Shown here piece after piece: positions 4,848 to 61,815 of a stretch of 64,000 nt of DNA; the first letter of the stretch is position 1; each line of letters begins with the position of its first letter. A program made the translations under genes and the position numbers. A model generated the notes under the pieces. The model was not told where the DNA came from and searched no databases. It saw nothing but the letters and a program-made list of their open reading frames with translations. Source of the DNA: Shigella phage Sf18. Where the stretch lies: the sequence record MF158044; one strand, 5' to 3'.

Positions 4848-5042
4848 ATGCCAACCATTCTAGCAATCCTCATGAAAAACCTTGGGGCATTCTTTTGGAA
4901 GCTTCTTTTTTCTCTTCTCAGTGAATACATGATTGAAAAAGTGTTCTTTAAGCTTGCAAGATACCTTGCGAGTAAAACAGATACACCTATTGATGATGAA
5001 TTTGTAGATACCTTGGAAAAGGCTTTTAAAGGTGAGAAATAA
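4848..5042 (+). CDS. small membrane protein
   Basis: 64 aa, hydrophobic N-terminal half, SD AAGGTG upstream. Confidence 0.35.
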   Translation: MPTILAILMKNLGAFFWKLLFSLLSEYMIEKVFFKLARYLASKTDTPIDDEFVDTLEKAFKGEK

Positions 5043-5416
5043 TGAAGTGGCTTGAAGATGCTTTTAAGAATAATATTGGTGCAATCGTTGTAGGTATTTT
5101 CAGTGTAATTGGTATGTACACTACAATGCAGGTCTCTGATGGTAAACAGGAAGTGTCTATCACAAATAAGTTACAACAGTTGGATGGTTACTCAAAAGGT
5201 AACTATTCAGCTATTCGTGACTTACAATCTGATATGAAGCTCCTACAATTAGGGATGGAGAACCAGAAAGTTCAGCTAGAGAATGTTAAGGGAGAAAACG
5301 CTAAGTTGACTAAGACCCTTGATAAGTTCTCTGACAGTGTTAACAACTTAGCACAATCTGTATCAGCTTTGCAAGCAATTACAGAACAAAATACCCAAAG
5401 CACTAAAAAGAAATAA
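5042..5416 (+). CDS. membrane-anchored coiled-coil protein
   Basis: 124 aa; N-terminal TM helix (IGAIVVGIFSVIGMY) then heptad-like polar region; ATGA overlap with upstream ORF. Confidence 0.4.
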   Translation: MKWLEDAFKNNIGAIVVGIFSVIGMYTTMQVSDGKQEVSITNKLQQLDGYSKGNYSAIRDLQSDMKLLQLGMENQKVQLENVKGENAKLTKTLDKFSDSVNNLAQSVSALQAITEQNTQSTKKK

Positions 5417-12682: not shown

Positions 12683-12928
12683 TCAATATCCTCCATCAAA
12701 AACTGTGGTGTGTGACTGACTATTCTTCCCATACTTGTAAGAAGTTGTAGTCTGAGAATTTGGGCAGCGAACTACAATAACATCCCTGCTAATGGCATCA
12801 CCATTAAGCTTATAAATCTTGCAGTCTTGCATTTCTGGAGGAAGTCTGTAAGAGGCATCCTTATTCTCATAAGAAGGGTTGCACCCCACCAGTAAGACTA
12901 CTAAAGCTGGTATCAATAATTTTAACAT
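12683..12928 (-). CDS. small lipoprotein
   Basis: 81 aa; signal peptide ending in lipobox LLVGC (MLKLLIPALVVLLVGC). Confidence 0.4.
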   Translation of the reverse strand: MLKLLIPALVVLLVGCNPSYENKDASYRLPPEMQDCKIYKLNGDAISRDVIVVRCPNSQTTTSYKYGKNSQSHTTVFDGGY

Positions 12929-40994: not shown

Positions 40995-41037
40995 ACGAAC
41001 CACTAAGTAATTTTAAACAACAAAGAGAGATATTGAA

Positions 41038-42159
41038 ATGACTACTAAGACTAAAGCACAAATCGACGCAGAAATCTATGCACTGGTTAAAGAAGGTAAA
41101 CTGACCAAAACTGCAATTGCTCTGAAGTATAACACTTCAACCCGTTCAGTAGGTCGTGCTGTAGAGCGTCATGAAGCAACACTGCTGTCAGGGAAAACCA
41201 AAGCAAAACCTGCAAAGACTCTGAAAGATATTGCAAAGAATGCTAAGAAAGCTAAAGCGACCAAGAAAGTATCTAAGCAGAAACCTGTTGCAAAAGCTGT
41301 TAAAGAAGCAGTCAAAGCAGAGCCTGTAAATGCTCTGCATGAAGCAATGCAGAATAACAGCCAGATTGAATACATGATTACTGGTGATTCTGTTATCATG
41401 ACTTTCGGTGCAGAGTCTGAGATTGTTGAGTCAACTCATCCTAACTACACTGATATTGTAATGGCTGTTGTTTCAGGTGAGTACAAGAAAGCTTTTGAAC
41501 TGATGAACATTCGCAAGTCTATTGAGAACTTCACTCAAGGTGCTGTAACCATCAAAGGTGACAACCTGTATTACGGTGCTGTTCAGATGCGCTCAACTCT
41601 GGTAGACCGTATTCTGGATATGATGAAGAAAGGTGATAATGGTTTTGTTCGACTGATTGAATTCTTTGAAAAACTGATGGAAAACCCATCAAAAGATTCT
41701 GTAGAACAACTTTGGGGCTTTGTATCACACCTTGATGTTGAAATTGATGAAGAAGGTTATATCATCGGCTGGAAGAAAGTCACAACTCGTGGTGGTAAAC
41801 TGTTTGACTCTCGTACCTGCAAAGTTCCAAATGATTTGGGTAACATTGTAGAGATGCCACGTTGGATGGTTGATAATAACCGTCATGTAACCTGCTCTCA
41901 GGGTCTGCACGTTGGTGCTTGGGATTATGTAACTAGCTTCTCTGGTGACACTATCCTGAAAGTTCGTGTTCATCCTCGTGATGTTGTTTCAGTACCAACT
42001 GACTACAACGACATGAAAATGCGAGCTTCCCGCTATGAAGTTGCAGCGATTGTAAATAGTCGCCGTGAAGTCATCAAAGAGTGGGATGGTTCAGAAGCAC
42101 TCCACGTAGTTGTAGGTACTGCTGGTGAACTGATTTCTCAGCGTAAACGTGAAGTTTAA
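41038..42159 (+). CDS. rIIB: rIIB-like protein
   Basis: 373 aa; call rests on position immediately downstream of rIIA-like gene and size; no independent motif. Confidence 0.4.
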   Translation: MTTKTKAQIDAEIYALVKEGKLTKTAIALKYNTSTRSVGRAVERHEATLLSGKTKAKPAKTLKDIAKNAKKAKATKKVSKQKPVAKAVKEAVKAEPVNALHEAMQNNSQIEYMITGDSVIMTFGAESEIVESTHPNYTDIVMAVVSGEYKKAFELMNIRKSIENFTQGAVTIKGDNLYYGAVQMRSTLVDRILDMMKKGDNGFVRLIEFFEKLMENPSKDSVEQLWGFVSHLDVEIDEEGYIIGWKKVTTRGGKLFDSRTCKVPNDLGNIVEMPRWMVDNNRHVTCSQGLHVGAWDYVTSFSGDTILKVRVHPRDVVSVPTDYNDMKMRASRYEVAAIVNSRREVIKEWDGSEALHVVVGTAGELISQRKREV

Positions 42160-42176
42160 TAAGTAAATTCCTAAAG

Positions 42177-42199
42177 GGGCTGCTTCGGCAGCCTTTTTT
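42177..42199 (+). terminator. intrinsic terminator
   Basis: GGCTGC-TTCG-GCAGCC hairpin followed by TTTTTT. Confidence 0.55.
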
Positions 42200-42260
42200 A
42201 TTTGAAAAATGTGCAGGTTAGTGTATAATTGTCTGCATGTTTAACAAAATAGGAGTGCAA

Positions 42261-42809
42261 ATGAAGAAATTTGTTTTAGGTTTGTGCTTATTCTTTACAG
42301 CACATTTAGCTACAGCATCTGACTGTCCAGAGCTTACAATCAGCCAGAAAGTTAATATGTTAAAAGCATATAACTATGGCGAAGGGCAGATGGGAAAAGG
42401 TTGGGGAATCCCTTTAGCAGCTATAGCCTTACAAGAGTCACAATTAGGTGTCATGTTAGAAAATAAAAAGACTCATGATTATGGTGTTTTCCAGAATCAC
42501 TTGAAGACTGTTGTAAAGCGTAACAAGGTATCTCCAAAGGTTGCTAAGAAGAAGCTAGTAAGTGACTTCCATTACTCAGCGAAAGAGGCTCATAAAGAGC
42601 TATTATTCTGGACTAAGGTTCATGGCAACCCAGATGGAAAGTACTCTATGAAGCGTGTCCTAGCTTCTTATAATGCTGGTTACAAATACAAGATTCCAAA
42701 GGCTAGACAATACTCTCAAGATGTGTACAATAACATGAAACTGCTTGCTCAATGTGAGTTTGCAACAAACATTAAAAAGGTAAAATATGAGCGAATCAAA
42801 ACAATTTGA
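42261..42809 (+). CDS. secreted lytic transglycosylase-like protein (GH23/SLT-like)
   Basis: Start at Met after AGGAG; signal peptide MKKFVLGLCLFFTAHLATA; E-S motif (ALQESQLG), G-x-x-Q (YGVFQ) and YNAG (LASYNAGY). Confidence 0.5.
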   Translation: MKKFVLGLCLFFTAHLATASDCPELTISQKVNMLKAYNYGEGQMGKGWGIPLAAIALQESQLGVMLENKKTHDYGVFQNHLKTVVKRNKVSPKVAKKKLVSDFHYSAKEAHKELLFWTKVHGNPDGKYSMKRVLASYNAGYKYKIPKARQYSQDVYNNMKLLAQCEFATNIKKVKYERIKTI

Positions 42810-43482
42810 CATGGTTCTGTGTCATGCTTATGATATTAAGCCACTTGATTTAGATATCAGTTCTGCAAGTTGGTCAGATATTACTAAAGCTGACTTTGCA
42901 GATACAGCAAGAAATGTTGTATGTAGTTTTGAAGACTTTCATTCAACAAAGACACAGGTTCCTTGTCAGGATTTGCTAACAGGTAAAACTGTGTATGTTG
43001 GTCGTAACAGCCTTATCTTGGTTGCAAAGAACTTGGAAGAAAAACGTAAAATGGTCTTAGCAGACATTGACGGTGTTCTTACAAGCTTTAATAAGGAGCT
43101 TAATGCAACTCTGCTAACTGATGGTACTTACTCACAGTACACTGATTTGGTAGAATCTTGCAGAGCTAAACCAACATATGTTTTTAACATTCTGTGTGGT
43201 ATATCAAGAAATGCTGATATAGGATTCTTAACTGCTCGTGGTGAATCACAAAGAGTTGTCACACATCTTTTCCTGAATGAGAATGTAGACAGTGATTTCC
43301 TACTGTTTATGCGTGGATTTGGTGACAATGAGATTAGTGCAGAAAGTTTGAAAGTTCGTATGCTTCAGTCTTGCATTCTACCTTACTATGATGTAGTATG
43401 CTTTATAGAAGATACAGTGAAGAACGTGGCAAAGGTAGAAAGAATCTTACCACACATCAAAACAATGCTTGTTAAAAACTGA
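42787..43482 (+). CDS. hypothetical protein, possible HAD-family phosphatase
   Basis: 231 aa; motif VLADIDGVLT resembles HAD motif I (DxDG[TV]); otherwise unassigned. Confidence 0.3.
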   Translation: MSESKQFDMVLCHAYDIKPLDLDISSASWSDITKADFADTARNVVCSFEDFHSTKTQVPCQDLLTGKTVYVGRNSLILVAKNLEEKRKMVLADIDGVLTSFNKELNATLLTDGTYSQYTDLVESCRAKPTYVFNILCGISRNADIGFLTARGESQRVVTHLFLNENVDSDFLLFMRGFGDNEISAESLKVRMLQSCILPYYDVVCFIEDTVKNVAKVERILPHIKTMLVKN

Positions 43483-43493
43483 GAGAGTAAACC

Positions 43494-43958
43494 ATGCAAA
43501 ACATTATTACAGTAGCTATCGATGCTTCCGGTAACAAATCACAGGTAGTTCGTGAGATTATCAAGAGTAATTTCGATGGTAAAATCTTTCGTGCAGTAAA
43601 CGTGAAAGCTGATGGTAACATTCGTGAGTATCGTGCAATGTTGAATGTCACAAAACACGTTAAGGGTGTCGGTTCAACTACTGCTCATAAAGAAAATCTG
43701 ATGACTATCTATGATATGGGTATGGCTTCAGAGTTAGGTGCAAAAGGGATTGTACAATCCGGTGCTCCTTACCGTTCTTTCAATCTGGAAACTGCTCTTA
43801 TGCTTTCCTTTACAAGTGGTTCTCAAACTACCACTTACCTCTTCACAGATACTGCAACGGTTTCTGCGATTAAGGACAATACCATTAAGGCTGGCGTAGC
43901 TGCCGCTTCAAAAGCCTCAACAATGGCAGCAAATGTCCTTGCGAAAGTTCTTGGTTAA
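43494..43958 (+). CDS. hypothetical protein
   Basis: 154-aa ORF, SD GAGAG. Confidence 0.4.
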   Translation: MQNIITVAIDASGNKSQVVREIIKSNFDGKIFRAVNVKADGNIREYRAMLNVTKHVKGVGSTTAHKENLMTIYDMGMASELGAKGIVQSGAPYRSFNLETALMLSFTSGSQTTTYLFTDTATVSAIKDNTIKAGVAAASKASTMAANVLAKVLG

Positions 43959-43969
43959 AGTTATTATAG

Positions 43970-43992
43970 AGGCTCCTTCGGGAGCCTTTTTC
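43970..43992 (+). terminator. intrinsic terminator
   Basis: AGGCTCC-TTCG-GGAGCCT hairpin followed by TTTTT. Confidence 0.55.
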
Positions 43993-44010
43993 ATTTCTAG
44001 GAGAAGTTAA

Positions 44011-44358
44011 ATGACGTTTAAAGAATTTTGTCAAGCAGCTTTTGCAATCATTTTCTTAACAGGTGTTGGTGCTTGGGGAGGCTACACTTACAAGACCAGC
44101 CAAGTTAATGAAAAGGAGTTAACTAACCAGAGACTTGTGAGTGTTGCTAAAGATGCTTATCAAGAGGGTTTATCAAATCTTAGCTCCAATTACAAAAATG
44201 ATTTGAAAGATGTGCTTGCTAAAAACAAACACACCAAAGAGGTATTGAACTATGAAAAAACTAAGACAGTCTTTATTAATGATTGTGCTACTGAGCCTTA
44301 TGTCAGGGTGTTCAACGAACAAAGTGAACAGTACCTTCAAAAACTCCCAAGTAAGTGA
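44011..44358 (+). CDS. type II membrane protein, candidate i-spanin
   Basis: 115 aa; single N-terminal TM (AAFAIIFLTGVGAWGG) then polar, partly helical domain; overlapped at 3' end by a lipoprotein ORF in another frame. Confidence 0.35.
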   Translation: MTFKEFCQAAFAIIFLTGVGAWGGYTYKTSQVNEKELTNQRLVSVAKDAYQEGLSNLSSNYKNDLKDVLAKNKHTKEVLNYEKTKTVFINDCATEPYVRVFNEQSEQYLQKLPSK

Positions 44359-44518
44359 GAGTGACAAGTACACTCAAGAAGAAGCACGGTATGAGGTTAA
44401 AGGTACTAAAGGTGAAGACCTTGCAAGTGCTCTTGAGTTTTATCGTGATGGTTACTATGAATGTACTATTAAGGCAAACAATTTAATTGATATGATTTTG
44501 TTAGGGAATAAGCAGTAA
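44252..44518 (+). CDS. lipoprotein, candidate o-spanin
   Basis: 88 aa; signal peptide with lipobox LMSGC; own SD AGAGG; overlaps preceding ORF by 107 nt out of frame. Confidence 0.35.
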   Translation: MKKLRQSLLMIVLLSLMSGCSTNKVNSTFKNSQVSESDKYTQEEARYEVKGTKGEDLASALEFYRDGYYECTIKANNLIDMILLGNKQ

Positions 44519-44787
44519 TGACAGAGAAGAATGAAACATTTTTTGTGGAAGGTTATCTTCTGTTACCAAGACCAAGTAACACTTACATGAGATTTGACAT
44601 TATGCCAACGGTTATGGATGATGTAACTTGTCACATCTTTATGCAGGGTGTTTCTGCACAACTTAAACATGTTGGAAGAGATTGCAAAATACGTGTTGAC
44701 AACCATCCTGAAATCAACGAGAATCACTACACATGGTTCGGGGAAGATTCTAAAGAAATCTATGCAGTCCTTAAAACGAGGAAGTGA
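44518..44787 (+). CDS. hypothetical protein
   Basis: 89-aa ORF. Confidence 0.35.
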   Translation: MTEKNETFFVEGYLLLPRPSNTYMRFDIMPTVMDDVTCHIFMQGVSAQLKHVGRDCKIRVDNHPEINENHYTWFGEDSKEIYAVLKTRK

Positions 44788-44796
44788 GGTTTAGTG

Positions 44797-45123
44797 ATGC
44801 AACTAGATGGTAAGAATTATGTAGCCGTCTTTTCAGACGGTGAGAAAGAAATTGGTACAGCACAAGTCTGTCACAGTGGTAAAGAGTTTCTCTATGGGGT
44901 TGTTGCATTCATTGGTACTCGTGGAGATATGAAATCTTTTAAAGATTGTGTTGACAAGCTTGAAGAATCCATAGAGAATCATTGGTGTCTGATATGGCTT
45001 AATGCAGAGAATGTTAAAGAACGCTATGCAAAAGTTGGTATCCATATTGAAAGCATCGAACATGTTGACCTGTTTGAGCTAACTGAAAAGGTGATGTATG
45101 AAAGCAATTCTGGTAAGAAGTAA
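44797..45123 (+). CDS. hypothetical protein
   Basis: Start at ATG after GAGGT SD (track begins at GTG). Confidence 0.35.
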   Translation: MQLDGKNYVAVFSDGEKEIGTAQVCHSGKEFLYGVVAFIGTRGDMKSFKDCVDKLEESIENHWCLIWLNAENVKERYAKVGIHIESIEHVDLFELTEKVMYESNSGKK

Positions 45124-45334
45124 AGTTACACGTCAAGTGTTAGTAGGGGCTATATTTGTTGGACGGGATGAGGTAATACCATTCATGAACCCCTTGATTC
45201 ACTACAACTTCAAGATAGGGGATTTTAAACACTACCTGAATCCTCTGCTTACAAGATTAAGCTTAGAAGAGTTTAAGTGTAATTACTCTTATGAAGGTGA
45301 TACATACTTCCAAGAGGTAATATCAAATGGCTGA
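45098..45334 (+). CDS. hypothetical protein
   Basis: 78-aa ORF. Confidence 0.3.
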   Translation: MKAILVRSKVTRQVLVGAIFVGRDEVIPFMNPLIHYNFKIGDFKHYLNPLLTRLSLEEFKCNYSYEGDTYFQEVISNG

Positions 45335-45527
45335 TTTCTGCACTAAGTGTTCTGTTGAGATGTTTGGAAAAGACACAGGGGACTTAAAAGGCCTCTTTAC
45401 AAAAGCAGAGTTTGAAGCTGGTTCAGCAATGCCAGTAATCTGTGAAGGTTGTGGTGCTTTATGGGTAGACCATGAAGGTAACCGAGTTAAACCATCTGAA
45501 GATAACGAACGTTGGGAGCATTACTAA
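45327..45527 (+). CDS. small zinc-ribbon protein
   Basis: 66 aa with CxxC...CxxC (CTKCS...CEGCG). Confidence 0.35.
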   Translation: MADFCTKCSVEMFGKDTGDLKGLFTKAEFEAGSAMPVICEGCGALWVDHEGNRVKPSEDNERWEHY

Positions 45528-45528
45528 T

Positions 45529-46323
45529 ATGGGTATCGTAAAAATTATTAAAGGTGATATCTTTAAAGACTTTGATGGTAAGAAATTTGATATCATTGGT
45601 CACGGTTGTAACTGCATGAACTTGATGGGTGCAGGTATTGCAGCAACAATTGCTAAACGCTACCCAAAAGCTTATGAAACTGACGCTGAAGTTTATGCTA
45701 CAGTAGGTGGTGAAAATCATAACCCTAAGCATCTAATGCTTGGTAACATCTCTGTAGCACGTTTTAAGCAGGGTCGAATTGCTAACCTTTACACTCAGGT
45801 TATCACTGGCAAAGATGCACGATACAACGCCTTAGAAGCAGCTTTACAGCGTCTTAACAACTACTGTAAAGTTAATCAACTTAAGAAAGTTGGGCTTCCG
45901 ATGATTGGTGCAGGGATTGGTGGTCTTGATAGCATGGCTGTACTGTCCATTATCAACCAGACTATGAAGGATGTTGACGTTTATATGTATGTCTATGAAG
46001 ATAAGATGTACAGTCAGTTGACTAGTCCTGTTACTGGTTGGGAGAACTTCAGTGAGCCTCAATACTTTGATGGTGTTGCTGTGGTAGGCAAGGATAAAGT
46101 TACCCTCAAGGTGAAGCGTAATGGCAAGGTACACACCAGTTACCCTCCGGTTGAGAAGTACAATCGAAGTAACGCTCAAGTTACCCACCCGTTACAAGGT
46201 CACCACCACAGAGCGGTAACGTTTAGCGATGATGCAAGTGTATATATCAATGCGACTACAGAAGAGTTTGCAGAAGATTATATCACACATGAAAACGTAA
46301 ACTATGTTGAAGCACGTAACTAA
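45529..46323 (+). CDS. macro-domain protein (ADP-ribose binding/hydrolase family)
   Basis: Start at Met (MGIVKIIKGDIF); macro signatures GDIF, DIIGHGCNCMNLMGAGIAATI, VGLPMIGAGIGGL; C-terminal 120 aa unassigned. Confidence 0.55.
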   Translation: MGIVKIIKGDIFKDFDGKKFDIIGHGCNCMNLMGAGIAATIAKRYPKAYETDAEVYATVGGENHNPKHLMLGNISVARFKQGRIANLYTQVITGKDARYNALEAALQRLNNYCKVNQLKKVGLPMIGAGIGGLDSMAVLSIINQTMKDVDVYMYVYEDKMYSQLTSPVTGWENFSEPQYFDGVAVVGKDKVTLKVKRNGKVHTSYPPVEKYNRSNAQVTHPLQGHHHRAVTFSDDASVYINATTEEFAEDYITHENVNYVEARN

Positions 46324-46391
46324 TAAGTTACCCAGATAAACATAGACAAGCCCTCCAAAGTTTGAGTTTAAAATCTCAGGTAAGGGGGGCT

Positions 46392-46576
46392 TTTTCATTT
46401 TAAATTTGTGCAGGTATAGTTGCATAGAACTCTGGACAGATTTCTTTAGCTGAACTCCAAAGGGAAAATTCATTTCAAATTTGTGCAGGTTTAGACTCCA
46501 AAGGGATTTTTCATTTTCAATCTGTGCAGATGCAGTTGGACTCCAAAGGGAAAATTCATTTTCAGTTTGTGCAGGT
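46392..46576. repeat. tandem array of four ~42-bp repeats with TTTGTGCAGGT core
   Basis: Units (CTCCAAAGGG)(A/T)TTCATTT(Y)MARTYTGTGCAGRT at about 46392, 46466, 46507, 46552; followed by C-rich tract 46596-46630; related motif upstream of SLT-like gene at 42203-42230. Confidence 0.55.
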
Positions 46577-61344: not shown

Positions 61345-61815
61345 CTATTTTGGATAAACAGCGTCAAGGTAAATCTTGGCTTCCAAACTACGTCTATTTT
61401 GTAGACCCTTGGAAGTTACTTTTTGACCATTCACTGTAATCTTGTTCCACCACTGCATAGCTTCTGCACAACCAGCTTTGTTACCAGCATTGTGACGCTT
61501 GATAAAAGTTGAATCCTGCATAGCACCGATGCCAATGTTGTAAGTCTCTACAACAAGTGCGTCAAATTCGTTCTGCGTAGTTGGAACCTTAATTGCTCTG
61601 TTTACTGCACCTACATAGTTCTCAACATCTGCAAGGAGATATTGTTCAGCTTGCTCGGCAGTAATCTTCATCCCCATCGTAACAGGTCTTCCGTTGATAC
61701 GAATTGTACCATAACCAATTGTAGGGATTCCAGCAGAGTCTTTATAGGCTTCTAAACGAAGCCCTTCAAAGAACTTAATGGCTTCTAAGCCTTTACTTGA
61801 GAGTTGCATTATCAA
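61345..61815 (-). CDS. endolysin, T4 e-type lysozyme (GH24)
   Basis: 156 aa; catalytic-region signature FEGLRLEAYKDSAGIPTIGYG and downstream blocks typical of phage lysozymes. Confidence 0.7.
   Translation of the reverse strand: MIMQLSSKGLEAIKFFEGLRLEAYKDSAGIPTIGYGTIRINGRPVTMGMKITAEQAEQYLLADVENYVGAVNRAIKVPTTQNEFDALVVETYNIGIGAMQDSTFIKRHNAGNKAGCAEAMQWWNKITVNGQKVTSKGLQNRRSLEAKIYLDAVYPK

What the first reader, a model, noticed from the sequence alone, without database searches (positions are those of the whole stretch)
44011..44518. Overlapping membrane-protein / lipoprotein gene pair resembling an i-spanin/o-spanin unit, far from the endolysin
ORF 44011-44358 has one N-terminal TM helix and a polar periplasmic-type domain; ORF 44252-44518 starts inside it in another frame and encodes a lipoprotein (lipobox LMSGC). 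That overlapped architecture is characteristic of two-component spanins. The endolysin (61345-61815) is about 17 kb away on the other strand with no holin next to it, so lysis genes appear dispersed. A superinfection-exclusion pair is an alternative.
Basis: partly seen in the sequence, partly recalled or inferred. Interest (0 to 1): 0.45.

Follow-up and report, generated by a model that had tools for sequence, protein, structure and literature searches.

The report
Known Felix O1-type overlapped spanin genes
These two overlapping genes are the inner- and outer-membrane spanin pair that Felix O1-like phages are thought to use to break the host outer membrane at lysis; the pair is already catalogued in close relatives, so the finding is correct but ordinary.

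Summary
ORF 44011-44358 (115 aa) has one N-terminal transmembrane helix. ORF 44252-44518 (88 aa) starts inside it in the +1 frame, overlaps it by 107 nt, and encodes a lipoprotein (signal MKKLRQSLLMIVLLSLMSG|C, Ser at +2).

The window is a Mooglevirus (Ounavirinae), 98.9% identical to Shigella phage Sf15. Relatives such as Michonne, Moogle, Mordin and Sf13-19 already annotate these genes as i-spanin and o-spanin. Kongari et al. 2018 (SpaninDB) list Felix01 and Moogle as overlapped spanins with the same 107-nt overlap. The Moogle genome paper states that the lysis genes are "scattered around the genome".

- The pair is conserved in about 266-305 phage records.
- Nucleotide divergence in the overlap is less than half that of the flanks, as expected for dual coding.
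- Distant homologues of both proteins sit in a canonical holin-endolysin-holin-spanin cassette in Salmonella phage Sasha.
- One periplasmic Cys in each subunit is invariant across the seven phages aligned.

Caveats: no member of this family has been tested experimentally, the mature o-spanin has no proline, and the coiled-coil prediction is borderline.

Verdict: already known, low interest.

The parts
43968..43999 (+). Intrinsic terminator hairpin (GAGGCTCC-TTCG-GGAGCCTT) plus T-run, ending directly in front of the i-spanin ribosome-binding site
   Evidence: Pattern scan. RNA fold -16.4 kcal/mol, z = -2.3. Annotated as a terminator in Michonne. Conserved in Mooglevirus and Felixounavirus, and replaced by different-sequence hairpins plus a T-run in Hafnia phage Zyzzx and Erwinia phage FIfi106.
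43999..44004 (+). Shine-Dalgarno AGGAGA for the i-spanin, 6 nt before the ATG
   Evidence: Sequence. The same AGGAG is recorded for Felix01 and Moogle in SpaninDB Table S1.
44011..44358 (+). i-spanin gene (115 aa): N-terminal TMD at about residues 6-26, periplasmic domain of about 88 aa, conserved C-terminal motif EK-T-x-x-x-F-x-N-x-C-x-x-x-x-Y-x-x-x-(F/Y)-N including Cys92
   Evidence: ORF. Hydropathy. phrog_1152 'Rz-like spanin' at E=5.6e-38. Annotated as i-spanin in relatives. Listed in the SpaninDB JH2 family. Invariant residues across 7 phages.
44239..44242 (+). Shine-Dalgarno GAGG for the o-spanin, inside the i-spanin coding sequence, 9 nt before the ATG
   Evidence: Sequence. A ribosome-binding site is annotated at the equivalent position in Michonne and Moogle.
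44252..44518 (+). o-spanin gene (88 aa precursor): SPII signal at residues 1-19, lipobox LMSG|C (Cys20 codon 44309-44311), Ser at +2, flexible linker at residues 20-53, C-terminal helix at about residues 54-83 carrying Cys71
   Evidence: ORF. Lipobox scan. phrog_4180 at 8e-49 and a weak match to phrog_456 'Rz-like spanin' at 1.6e-3. Annotated as o-spanin in Michonne and Moogle. AF2 secondary structure, low to moderate confidence. Invariant C20, C71, G54, N76 and L78 across 7 phages.
44252..44358 (+). 107-nt dual-coding overlap. It encodes i-spanin residues 81-115 (its most conserved motif) and, in the +1 frame, o-spanin residues 1-36 (signal peptide plus the start of the linker)
   Evidence: Frame and overlap length. 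Nucleotide divergence is less than half that of the flanks. The same 107-nt overlap is tabulated for Felix01, FO1a, FSL_SP-010 and Moogle.
5042..5416 (+). Putative class III-type holin (124 aa, one N-terminal TMD). It is part of the same dispersed lysis system, about 39 kb from the spanins
   Evidence: TM scan. Annotated as 'holin' or 'putative holin' in Mordin, Sf14, KPS64, BPS17L1 and others. The Michonne paper names a putative class-III holin. PHROG function is unknown. There is no experimental evidence.
61345..61815 (-). Soluble endolysin (T4-lysozyme/GH24 type) at the end of the tail gene cluster
   Evidence: PF00959 at E=1.8e-39. phrog_7 endolysin. Annotated as 'lysozyme' after a tail protein in Michonne.

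Best explanation
The two genes encode a two-component spanin of the Felix O1/JH2 family in the 'overlapped' architecture.

Shown by sequence:
- gp(44011-44358) is a type-II inner-membrane protein with an N-terminal TMD and a periplasmic domain of about 88 aa.
- gp(44252-44518) is made from its own ribosome-binding site in the +1 frame.
- It carries an SPII signal with a lipobox Cys. Ser at +2 should send the 69-aa mature lipoprotein to the inner leaflet of the outer membrane.

Inferred by analogy with lambda Rz/Rz1 and T4 PseT.3/PseT.2:
[quoted passage not shown] These parts are the i-spanin motif EK..F.N.C....Y...FN and the o-spanin helix LEFYRDxYxxC..xxNxLID.
- The single conserved periplasmic cysteines (C92 and C71) make homotypic intermolecular disulfides.
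- The complexes accumulate harmlessly while the peptidoglycan mesh keeps them apart.
- Lysis would start when the holin (probably 5042-5416) lets the soluble lysozyme (61345-61815) destroy the murein. The spanin complexes would then oligomerise, fuse the inner and outer membranes, and release the progeny.

As in T4, the lysis genes are dispersed. The spanin pair lies in the rII/PNK block of non-structural genes, behind a conserved terminator.
For: - Gene anatomy fits the spanin rules: TMD, lipobox, Ser at +2, +1 frame, 107-nt overlap, own ribosome-binding sites.
- The i-spanin matches phrog_1152 'Rz-like spanin' at E=5.6e-38.
- Relatives 95-99% identical annotate the genes as i- and o-spanin. 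These include genomes curated by the Center for Phage Technology.
- SpaninDB lists Felix01 and Moogle in the JH2 i- and o-spanin families as overlapped pairs (PMC6139136).
- The Moogle and Michonne genome papers name the i-spanin, o-spanin, holin and lysozyme, and state that they are scattered.
- Both proteins have homologues in the canonical cassette holin-endolysin-holin-i-spanin-o-spanin of Salmonella siphophage Sasha. Pairwise BLASTP gives 9e-12 for the i-spanin and 2e-9 for the o-spanin.
- An overlapped pair is also present in kuravirus 172-1; pairwise BLASTP for its o-spanin gives 2e-11.
- The lipoprotein partner is present in 8 of 8 loci examined.
- Invariant periplasmic Cys residues occur in both subunits across the seven phages aligned. 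This fits the rule that 507 of 528 two-component spanins have at least one periplasmic Cys near the C-terminal interaction site.
- The overlap evolves at less than half the rate of the flanks.
- The summed periplasmic length of about 157 aa lies inside the catalogued range of 62-300.
- T4 likewise keeps its spanins next to pseT and away from the e and t genes.
Against: - No member of this family has been tested experimentally, as far as the searchable literature shows. The assignment rests on topology signals, architecture and context.
- The o-spanin PHROG (phrog_4180) is labelled 'unknown function'.
- No Pfam or NCBIfam spanin model matches either protein.
- There is no detectable sequence similarity to T4 PseT.3/PseT.2.
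- The mature o-spanin has no proline, unlike Rz1.
- Coiled-coil support is weak. Pepcoil gives one coiled coil in Moogle and none in Felix01. My own heptad score did not rise above shuffles, although it did not for lambda Rz either.
- The AF2 models are low confidence, with pLDDT 54.5 and 60.
- The genes are not next to a holin or an endolysin in this phage.
Confidence: 0.88

Rival explanations
1. The pair is an envelope-located superinfection-exclusion or receptor-masking system, in the manner of T4 Imm/Sp, T5 Llp or Cor. It would be expressed early to block DNA injection or adsorption by other phages, and would not be a lysis device.
For: The genes lie in a block of non-structural genes beside rIIA/rIIB, far from the endolysin. 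The o-spanin PHROG has no assigned function. There is a sub-threshold PDB profile hit to a phage surface-exposed lipoprotein, 4eqq, at E=0.032 with no stretch passing the threshold.
Against: - There are no PADLOC or NCBIfam hits.
- The 4eqq hit is not significant and covers only the low-complexity linker.
- Homologues of both proteins sit inside a classical lysis cassette in phage Sasha.
- Strict pairing of a TM protein with an overlapped OM lipoprotein in every lineage examined (Ounavirinae of several genera, a kuravirus and Sashavirus), with conserved C-terminal Cys motifs, is the spanin signature.
- Known exclusion lipoproteins act alone.
- T4 shows that spanins can sit among early genes next to pseT.
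Confidence: 0.04
2. Only the TM protein is functional. The overlapping 88-aa ORF would be a chance open frame or is not translated, so the 'pair' would be an artefact of reading two frames.
For: Several GenBank records omit or truncate the second ORF: Sf17 65 aa, Zyzzx 59 aa, 172-1 57 aa, and FIfi106 with none. One comparative paper reports that only the i-spanin was found in phage vB_Si_DR094.
Against: - The full-length ORF with signal peptide and lipobox is intact in every locus examined, including those where it is unannotated.
- Its non-overlapping 3' part shows mostly synonymous change, 18 synonymous vs 10 non-synonymous codon differences against UAB_Phi87.
- The protein is 26-43% identical across distant phages, with an invariant lipobox Cys, C71, G54, N76 and L78.
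- It has its own ribosome-binding site.
- Mis-called or missing o-spanin CDSs are a documented gene-caller artefact, affecting 260 of 528 systems.
Confidence: 0.02
3. The pair is spanin-like but has a modified or additional role. One option is a periplasm-spanning tether involved in lysis timing or lysis inhibition together with rIIA/rIIB. Another is cooperation with the nearby secreted lysozyme-like protein (42237-42809), rather than simple inner-outer membrane fusion.
For: The pair is conserved in synteny with rIIB, the secreted SLT-like protein and the PNK-like gene in Mooglevirus and Felixounavirus, and with the 'putative lysin' and PNK-like genes in Hafnia phage Zyzzx. A conserved terminator immediately upstream suggests controlled, low expression. 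The o-spanin is proline-free and helical, unlike Rz1.
Against: Nothing positive links the proteins to lysis inhibition. The same proteins occur without the rII or SLT neighbours in Sasha and 172-1. T4-type o-spanins also lack a proline-rich region, yet complement lambda Rz/Rz1.
Confidence: 0.06

Closest known systems
Felix O1 / JH2-family overlapped two-component spanin (SpaninDB; Felix O1 p014/p015, Moogle gp122/gp121, Michonne gp139/gp138)
   Same: The proteins are orthologues. The i-spanin is 97% identical to Michonne, 90% to Moogle and 77% to UAB_Phi87. The o-spanin is 89% identical to Moogle and 82% to UAB_Phi87. Lengths, the 107-nt +1 overlap, the ribosome-binding sites, the upstream terminator and the synteny are all the same.
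   Different: There are only trivial differences. The window's o-spanin is one codon shorter (CAA to TAA) and has a few substitutions.
Phage lambda Rz/Rz1
   Same: The logic is the same: a type-II inner-membrane protein plus an outer-membrane lipoprotein encoded in the +1 frame, with periplasmic cysteines and a presumed C-terminal interaction. The presumed function is outer-membrane disruption by membrane fusion.
   Different: - Architecture is embedded in lambda and overlapped here.
- There is no sequence-family match. The best PHROG is phrog_1152, the o-spanin hit to phrog_456 is only weak, and Pfam has no match.
- Rz1 is 40 aa when mature, proline-rich and unstructured. This o-spanin is 69 aa, has 0 Pro and has a predicted C-terminal helix.
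- Lambda's genes lie in the S-R-Rz cassette. Here they are dispersed.
Phage T4 PseT.3/PseT.2
   Same: Protein sizes are similar: 117 and 99 aa in T4, 115 and 88 aa here. The o-spanin is not proline-rich and has a C-terminal helix. In both phages the genes lie near a polynucleotide kinase/phosphatase gene and far from the holin and endolysin in a large virulent myovirus.
   Different: - There is no detectable sequence similarity.
- T4's architecture is 'separated' with a 4-nt junction, and the genes lie upstream of pseT. Here the overlap is 107 nt and the genes lie downstream of the PNK-like gene.
- In T4 the i-spanin has no Cys and the o-spanin has 2 periplasmic Cys. Here each subunit has one.
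Salmonella phage Sasha gp55/gp56 and kuravirus 172-1 gp053/ORF53 spanins
   Same: The pairs show remote homology: for Sasha, 28% (i-spanin) and 31% (o-spanin) identity at E 9e-12 and 2e-9; for 172-1, 31% o-spanin identity at E 2e-11 (i-spanin 22% in the alignment). They are also overlapped and share the conserved Cys-containing C-terminal motifs.
   Different: In Sasha the pair is the last part of a contiguous lysis cassette. Those o-spanins have 3 Pro and 2 periplasmic Cys, against 0 and 1 here.

Membership tests
Two-component spanin (general definition, Summer 2007 / Kongari 2018) | The i-spanin is a small protein with a single N-terminal TMD and a periplasmic C-terminal domain (type II topology) | tested here: met
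   One hydrophobic segment at about residues 6-26 and none elsewhere. AF2 helix at residues 3-20. The Moogle orthologue is flagged as TMD TRUE, with the periplasmic domain starting at K28, in SpaninDB Table S1. The N-in/C-out orientation is inferred, not measured.
Two-component spanin (general definition, Summer 2007 / Kongari 2018) | The o-spanin has an SPII lipoprotein signal with a lipobox Cys and no inner-membrane retention signal (no Asp at +2) | tested here: met
   The precursor reads MKKLRQSLLMIVLLSLMSG|CST. It matches the pattern [ILMFTV][^REKD][GAS]C after a basic n-region and a hydrophobic core, and +2 is Ser. The lipobox Cys is invariant in 7 phages. Actual lipidation is not testable here.
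Two-component spanin (general definition, Summer 2007 / Kongari 2018) | The two genes are adjacent in an embedded, overlapped or separated arrangement, with the o-spanin in another frame when they share DNA | tested here: met
   Overlapped arrangement, +1 frame, 107 nt shared, which is 0.31 of the i-spanin length. The values are identical to Felix01 and Moogle in Table S4.
Two-component spanin (general definition, Summer 2007 / Kongari 2018) | At least one periplasmic cysteine lies near the C-terminal interaction region, for intermolecular disulfides (507 of 528 systems) | tested here: met
   Cys92 in the i-spanin and Cys71 in the o-spanin are both invariant across the seven phages aligned. 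The rule is described. Disulfide formation itself was not tested.
Two-component spanin (general definition, Summer 2007 / Kongari 2018) | The combined periplasmic length is sufficient to span the periplasm (catalogued range 62-300 residues) | tested here: met
   About 88 plus 69 gives about 157 residues.
Two-component spanin (general definition, Summer 2007 / Kongari 2018) | The periplasmic domain of the i-spanin is helical or coiled-coil. This is frequent but not universal; more than 120 of 528 have no predicted coiled coil | tested here: inconclusive
   AF2 predicts helices at 39-55, 65-79, 82-91 and 95-111, but with pLDDT of only 54.5. Published Jpred gives 66% helix for Moogle. Pepcoil gives one coiled coil (52-79) in Moogle and none in Felix01. 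My own heptad score did not differ from shuffles, and it did not discriminate for lambda Rz either.
Two-component spanin (general definition, Summer 2007 / Kongari 2018) | The pair is required for outer-membrane disruption, with spherical non-lysing cells in Mg2+ when defective, or it complements lambda RzamRz1am | not testable with these tools
   This needs an experiment. No published test was found for any Felix O1-family spanin.
Two-component spanin (general definition, Summer 2007 / Kongari 2018) | The genes are linked to the holin and endolysin in a lysis cassette. This is typical but not defining; T4 and Felix O1-like phages are exceptions | tested here: not met
   The holin candidate is at 5042-5416 and the endolysin at 61345-61815 on the minus strand, about 39 kb and 17 kb away. 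Remote homologues in phage Sasha are in a cassette.
JH2 / Felix O1 i-spanin and o-spanin sequence families (SpaninDB threshold: at least 40% identity over at least 40% of length) | Sequence identity to family members is above the family threshold for both subunits | tested here: met
   The i-spanin is 90% identical to Moogle and 77% to UAB_Phi87. The o-spanin is 89% and 82% identical.
Lambda Rz / Rz1 sequence family | Rz-type sequence with CC1-linker-CC2, and Rz1 with a penta-proline stretch | tested here: not met
   No Pfam or NCBIfam match to any spanin family. The mature o-spanin has 0 Pro, against the PPPPP stretch in Rz1.
T4 PseT.3 / PseT.2 sequence family | Detectable sequence similarity to PseT.3 and PseT.2 | tested here: not met
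   BLASTP gives E=3.1 for the i-spanin and no alignment for the o-spanin.
Superinfection-exclusion / defence lipoproteins (Cor, Llp, Ltp, T4 Imm/Sp) | Sequence match to a known exclusion or defence protein family | tested here: not met
   PADLOC gives 0 families. NCBIfam gives only sub-threshold signal-peptide matches. The PDB profile hit to the lipoprotein 4eqq has E=0.032, with no stretch passing the threshold.

The most novel reading that the evidence does not exclude
The Felix O1/JH2 spanin family has never been tested at the bench. It could be a mechanistically distinct spanin type. The o-spanin is proline-free and its business end is a single Cys-bearing amphipathic helix. That helix would pair with a short Cys-bearing motif of the i-spanin (EK..F.N.C....Y...FN) rather than with long coiled coils. 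Dosage may be set by read-through of a terminator that is conserved directly in front of the genes throughout the Ounavirinae examined.
Probability: 0.15. Interest if true: 0.3.

Novelty: already known. Interest (0 to 1): 0.08.

Why it matters
It matters little as a discovery. The pair, its overlapped architecture and the scattering of lysis genes in Felix O1-like phages have been in GenBank annotations, in SpaninDB (2018) and in genome announcements (2015).

Its practical value is for annotation quality. Many related records still truncate or omit the o-spanin, so the correct start (the 88-89-aa form with the lipobox) is worth propagating. A modest open point is that this widespread family, found in hundreds of therapeutic and biocontrol Salmonella, E. 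coli and Shigella phages, has never been tested functionally. Its o-spanin also differs in composition from the lambda paradigm.

Tried and rejected
- **Homology to T4 PseT.3/PseT.2:** none was found. The shared proximity to a PNK-like gene is therefore synteny-like at best. The window's 'PNK' aligns only with the phosphatase half of PseT.
- **Family and structure libraries:** Pfam, NCBIfam, PADLOC and PDB sequence searches of both proteins gave nothing significant.
- **My own heptad-periodicity score for coiled coils:** it did not separate even lambda Rz from shuffled sequence, so I dropped it as uninformative.
- **AlphaFold2 with shallow alignments (16 and 14 sequences):** pLDDT was 54.5 and 60. 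I used only the secondary structure, with caution, and did not run fold searches because low-confidence models give meaningless matches.
- **A sigma-70-like promoter (TTGCGA-17-TATTAT, 43939-43967) overlapping the terminator:** the -10 element is not conserved in UAB_Phi87, so I do not propose it.
- **PHROG scans for a holin among the small TM proteins of the window:** none carries a 'holin' label. The holin candidate rests only on relatives' annotations and its topology.
- **Literature search for experiments on Felix O1-type spanins:** only annotation-level statements turned up.

Full report
**1. Observation**

ORF 44011-44358 encodes 115 aa. It has one hydrophobic N-terminal segment at about residues 6-26 and a polar remainder. 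An AGGAGA ribosome-binding site lies 6 nt upstream.

ORF 44252-44518 starts inside the first ORF in the +1 frame and shares 107 nt with it. It has its own GAGG site 9 nt upstream. Its product is an 88-aa lipoprotein precursor, MKKLRQSLLMIVLLSLMSG|CST.... The mature part is 69 aa with Ser at +2, one further Cys (C71) and no proline.

On the + strand of 41001-46500 this is the only ORF (45-140 aa) with a lipoprotein signal. The T4-lysozyme-type endolysin at 61345-61815 on the minus strand is also real (PF00959, E=1.8e-39). No small membrane protein lies next to it.

**2. Source of the window and existing annotation**

The region is 98.9% identical to Shigella phage Sf15. It is 95-98% identical to Shigella phages Sf13-Sf19 and Citrobacter phages Michonne and Mordin, which belong to Mooglevirus (Ounavirinae).

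In Michonne and Moogle, both annotated by the Center for Phage Technology, the two genes are already called i-spanin and o-spanin with the same coordinates and ribosome-binding sites. Sf17 names them the same way but gives the o-spanin a truncated start.

Kongari et al. 2018 (PMC6139136) list Felix01, FO1a, UAB_phi87, Moogle, Mushroom, WV8 and others in the 'JH2' i-spanin and o-spanin families. They class the architecture as 'overlapped' with a 107-nt overlap.

[quoted passage not shown] Both the feature and the 'dispersed lysis genes' remark are therefore already published.

**3. Independent evidence gathered here**

- **Family match.** The i-spanin matches phrog_1152 'Rz-like spanin' at E=5.6e-38. 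The o-spanin matches phrog_4180 (no assigned function) and, weakly, a spanin PHROG.
- **Distribution.** tblastn finds the i-spanin in 305 phage records and the o-spanin in 266.
- **Conserved pairing.** I inspected eight related loci: Michonne, Sf17, Moogle, UAB_Phi87, Hafnia phage Zyzzx, Erwinia phage FIfi106, kuravirus 172-1 and siphovirus Sasha. In all eight, a lipoprotein ORF in another frame overlaps the 3' end of the homologous TM-protein gene, even where GenBank omits or truncates it.
- **Context by homology.** In Sasha the homologous pair is the last element of a canonical holin-endolysin-holin-i-spanin-o-spanin cassette. Pairwise BLASTP gives 9e-12 for the i-spanin and 2e-9 for the o-spanin. 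This ties the family to lysis by context.
- **Invariant residues in the i-spanin.** The seven-phage alignment shows an invariant motif E82-K83...F88.N90.C92....Y97....N102.
- **Invariant residues in the o-spanin.** The same set of phages shows an invariant lipobox C20 plus G54, C71, N76 and L78. Each subunit therefore keeps one periplasmic cysteine near its C-terminal part. This fits the disulfide rule derived for spanins.
- **Dual-coding constraint.** Against UAB_Phi87 the 107-nt overlap differs at 10.2% of positions, compared with 24-26% in the single-coding parts. Against Moogle the figures are 8.3% and 12-14%. This indicates constraint in both frames.
- **How the two frames share the DNA.** The overlap pairs the i-spanin's most conserved motif with the o-spanin's signal peptide and linker, which tolerate change. 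The conserved o-spanin helix lies outside the overlap.

**4. Structure**

AF2 models built from shallow alignments are of low confidence.

- **i-spanin (pLDDT 54.5).** The model shows the TMD helix and four periplasmic helices.
- **o-spanin (pLDDT 60; about 70-76 in the C-terminal part).** The model shows the signal helix, a disordered linker at residues 19-53 and one long C-terminal helix at 54-83.

Published predictions for the Moogle orthologues give 66% helix for the i-spanin. Pepcoil finds one coiled coil at residues 52-79 in Moogle but none in Felix01.

Coiled-coil character is therefore borderline. Since more than 120 of the 528 catalogued i-spanins have no predicted coiled coil, its absence would not refute a spanin assignment.

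The lack of proline separates this o-spanin from lambda Rz1 but not from T4-type o-spanins.

**5. Mechanism (inferred)**

By analogy with lambda Rz/Rz1 and T4 PseT.3/PseT.2, the proposed sequence is as follows.

1. The inner-membrane protein and the outer-membrane lipoprotein bind through their C-terminal regions.
2. They form disulfide-stabilised complexes that span the periplasm.
3. The complexes stay inactive while the murein is intact.
4. Once the holin-released lysozyme removes the cell wall, the complexes fuse the two membranes.

The holin is probably the 124-aa single-TMD protein at 5042-5416. It is annotated as a holin in Mordin, Sf14, BPS17L1 and others.

None of these steps has been demonstrated for this family.

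**6. Context**

The pair lies downstream of four genes:

- rIIB (41038-42159);
- a secreted lysozyme-like protein (42237-42809);
- a PNK-like phosphatase (42787-43482);
- a 154-aa protein of unknown function.

T4 also keeps its spanins beside pseT. However, the T4 proteins show no sequence similarity to these, and the gene order differs.

A strong terminator hairpin ends just before the i-spanin ribosome-binding site. It is conserved in Mooglevirus and Felixounavirus. In more distant Ounavirinae it is replaced by different hairpins followed by a T-run. How the pair is transcribed is unresolved; read-through is the most likely route.

**7. Rivals**

- **Superinfection-exclusion pair.** This finds no support. 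It is also hard to reconcile with the Sasha cassette and with the strict pairing of the two proteins.
- **Chance ORF.** This is excluded by conservation and by the substitution pattern.

**8. Verdict**

The feature is an already catalogued member of a known spanin family in a known dispersed arrangement. Interest is low.

Two minor points remain. The family has not been tested experimentally. The o-spanin start is mis-called in many public records.

Noticed in passing
window 42237-42809 (+); probable true start 42261: This ORF encodes a lysozyme-like/SLT-like protein with a cleavable-looking signal peptide (MKKFVLGLCLFFTAHLATA|SD). It lies between rIIB and the PNK-like gene, only 1.2 kb upstream of the spanins. 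Pfam SLT matches at E=0.002, below the cut-off. phrog_600 has no assigned function. Sf17 annotates it as 'putative lysin' and Michonne as 'lysozyme-like domain'. No PDB sequence match was found. A secreted muralytic enzyme in a non-structural gene block is unexplained.
   Followed up: partly
window 12683-12928 (-): This is a second small lipoprotein gene (81 aa, MLKLLIPALVVLLVG|CNPS...). It matches phrog_902, which has no assigned function, and has no PADLOC or NCBIfam match. It has no overlapping TM partner. It is a better candidate than the spanin pair for a Cor/Llp-type exclusion lipoprotein, but this is untested.
   Followed up: partly
window 5042-5416 (+): This 124-aa protein has one N-terminal TMD and a long polar, heptad-rich C-terminal domain. 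It is annotated as 'holin' (class III type) in Mordin, Sf14, BPS17L1 and others, and is over 88% identical throughout Felixounavirus and Mooglevirus. PHROG assigns no function, and there is no experimental evidence.
   Followed up: partly
window 43968-43999 (+), and the equivalent positions in L001, L002, L005, L006, L007 and L008: The terminator hairpin directly 5' of the i-spanin ribosome-binding site is conserved across Mooglevirus and Felixounavirus. Hafnia phage Zyzzx and Erwinia phage FIfi106 have hairpins of different sequence followed by a T-run at the same place. The spanin cistrons therefore sit behind a terminator throughout the Ounavirinae examined. The transcription route is unknown.
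   Followed up: partly
L002 4334-4531; L005 2546-2725; L004 2778-2951; L006 2441-2716: The o-spanin CDS is truncated in Sf17, Zyzzx and 172-1, so the signal peptide and lipobox are lost. It is not annotated at all in FIfi106, although the full-length lipoprotein ORF is intact in each. Truncated 73- and 68-aa forms also dominate the metagenomic protein clusters.
   Followed up: yes
window 42787-43482 (+): The protein annotated as 'polynucleotide kinase' (231 aa) aligns only with the C-terminal phosphatase (DxDGT/HAD) half of T4 PseT. No kinase-domain similarity was seen, so it is probably a phosphatase only.
   Followed up: partly
window 44513-44520 (+): The window's o-spanin ends one codon earlier than in relatives. 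A CAA-to-TAA change gives ...GNKQ* instead of ...GNKQQ*. The start/stop junction with the next gene is therefore TAATG instead of ATGA.
   Followed up: yes
window 1-64000: ARAGORN finds no tRNA or tmRNA gene in the window. Felix O1-like genomes are reported to carry tRNA clusters, and Moogle an ssrA-like gene, so those must lie outside this 64-kb window.
   Followed up: no
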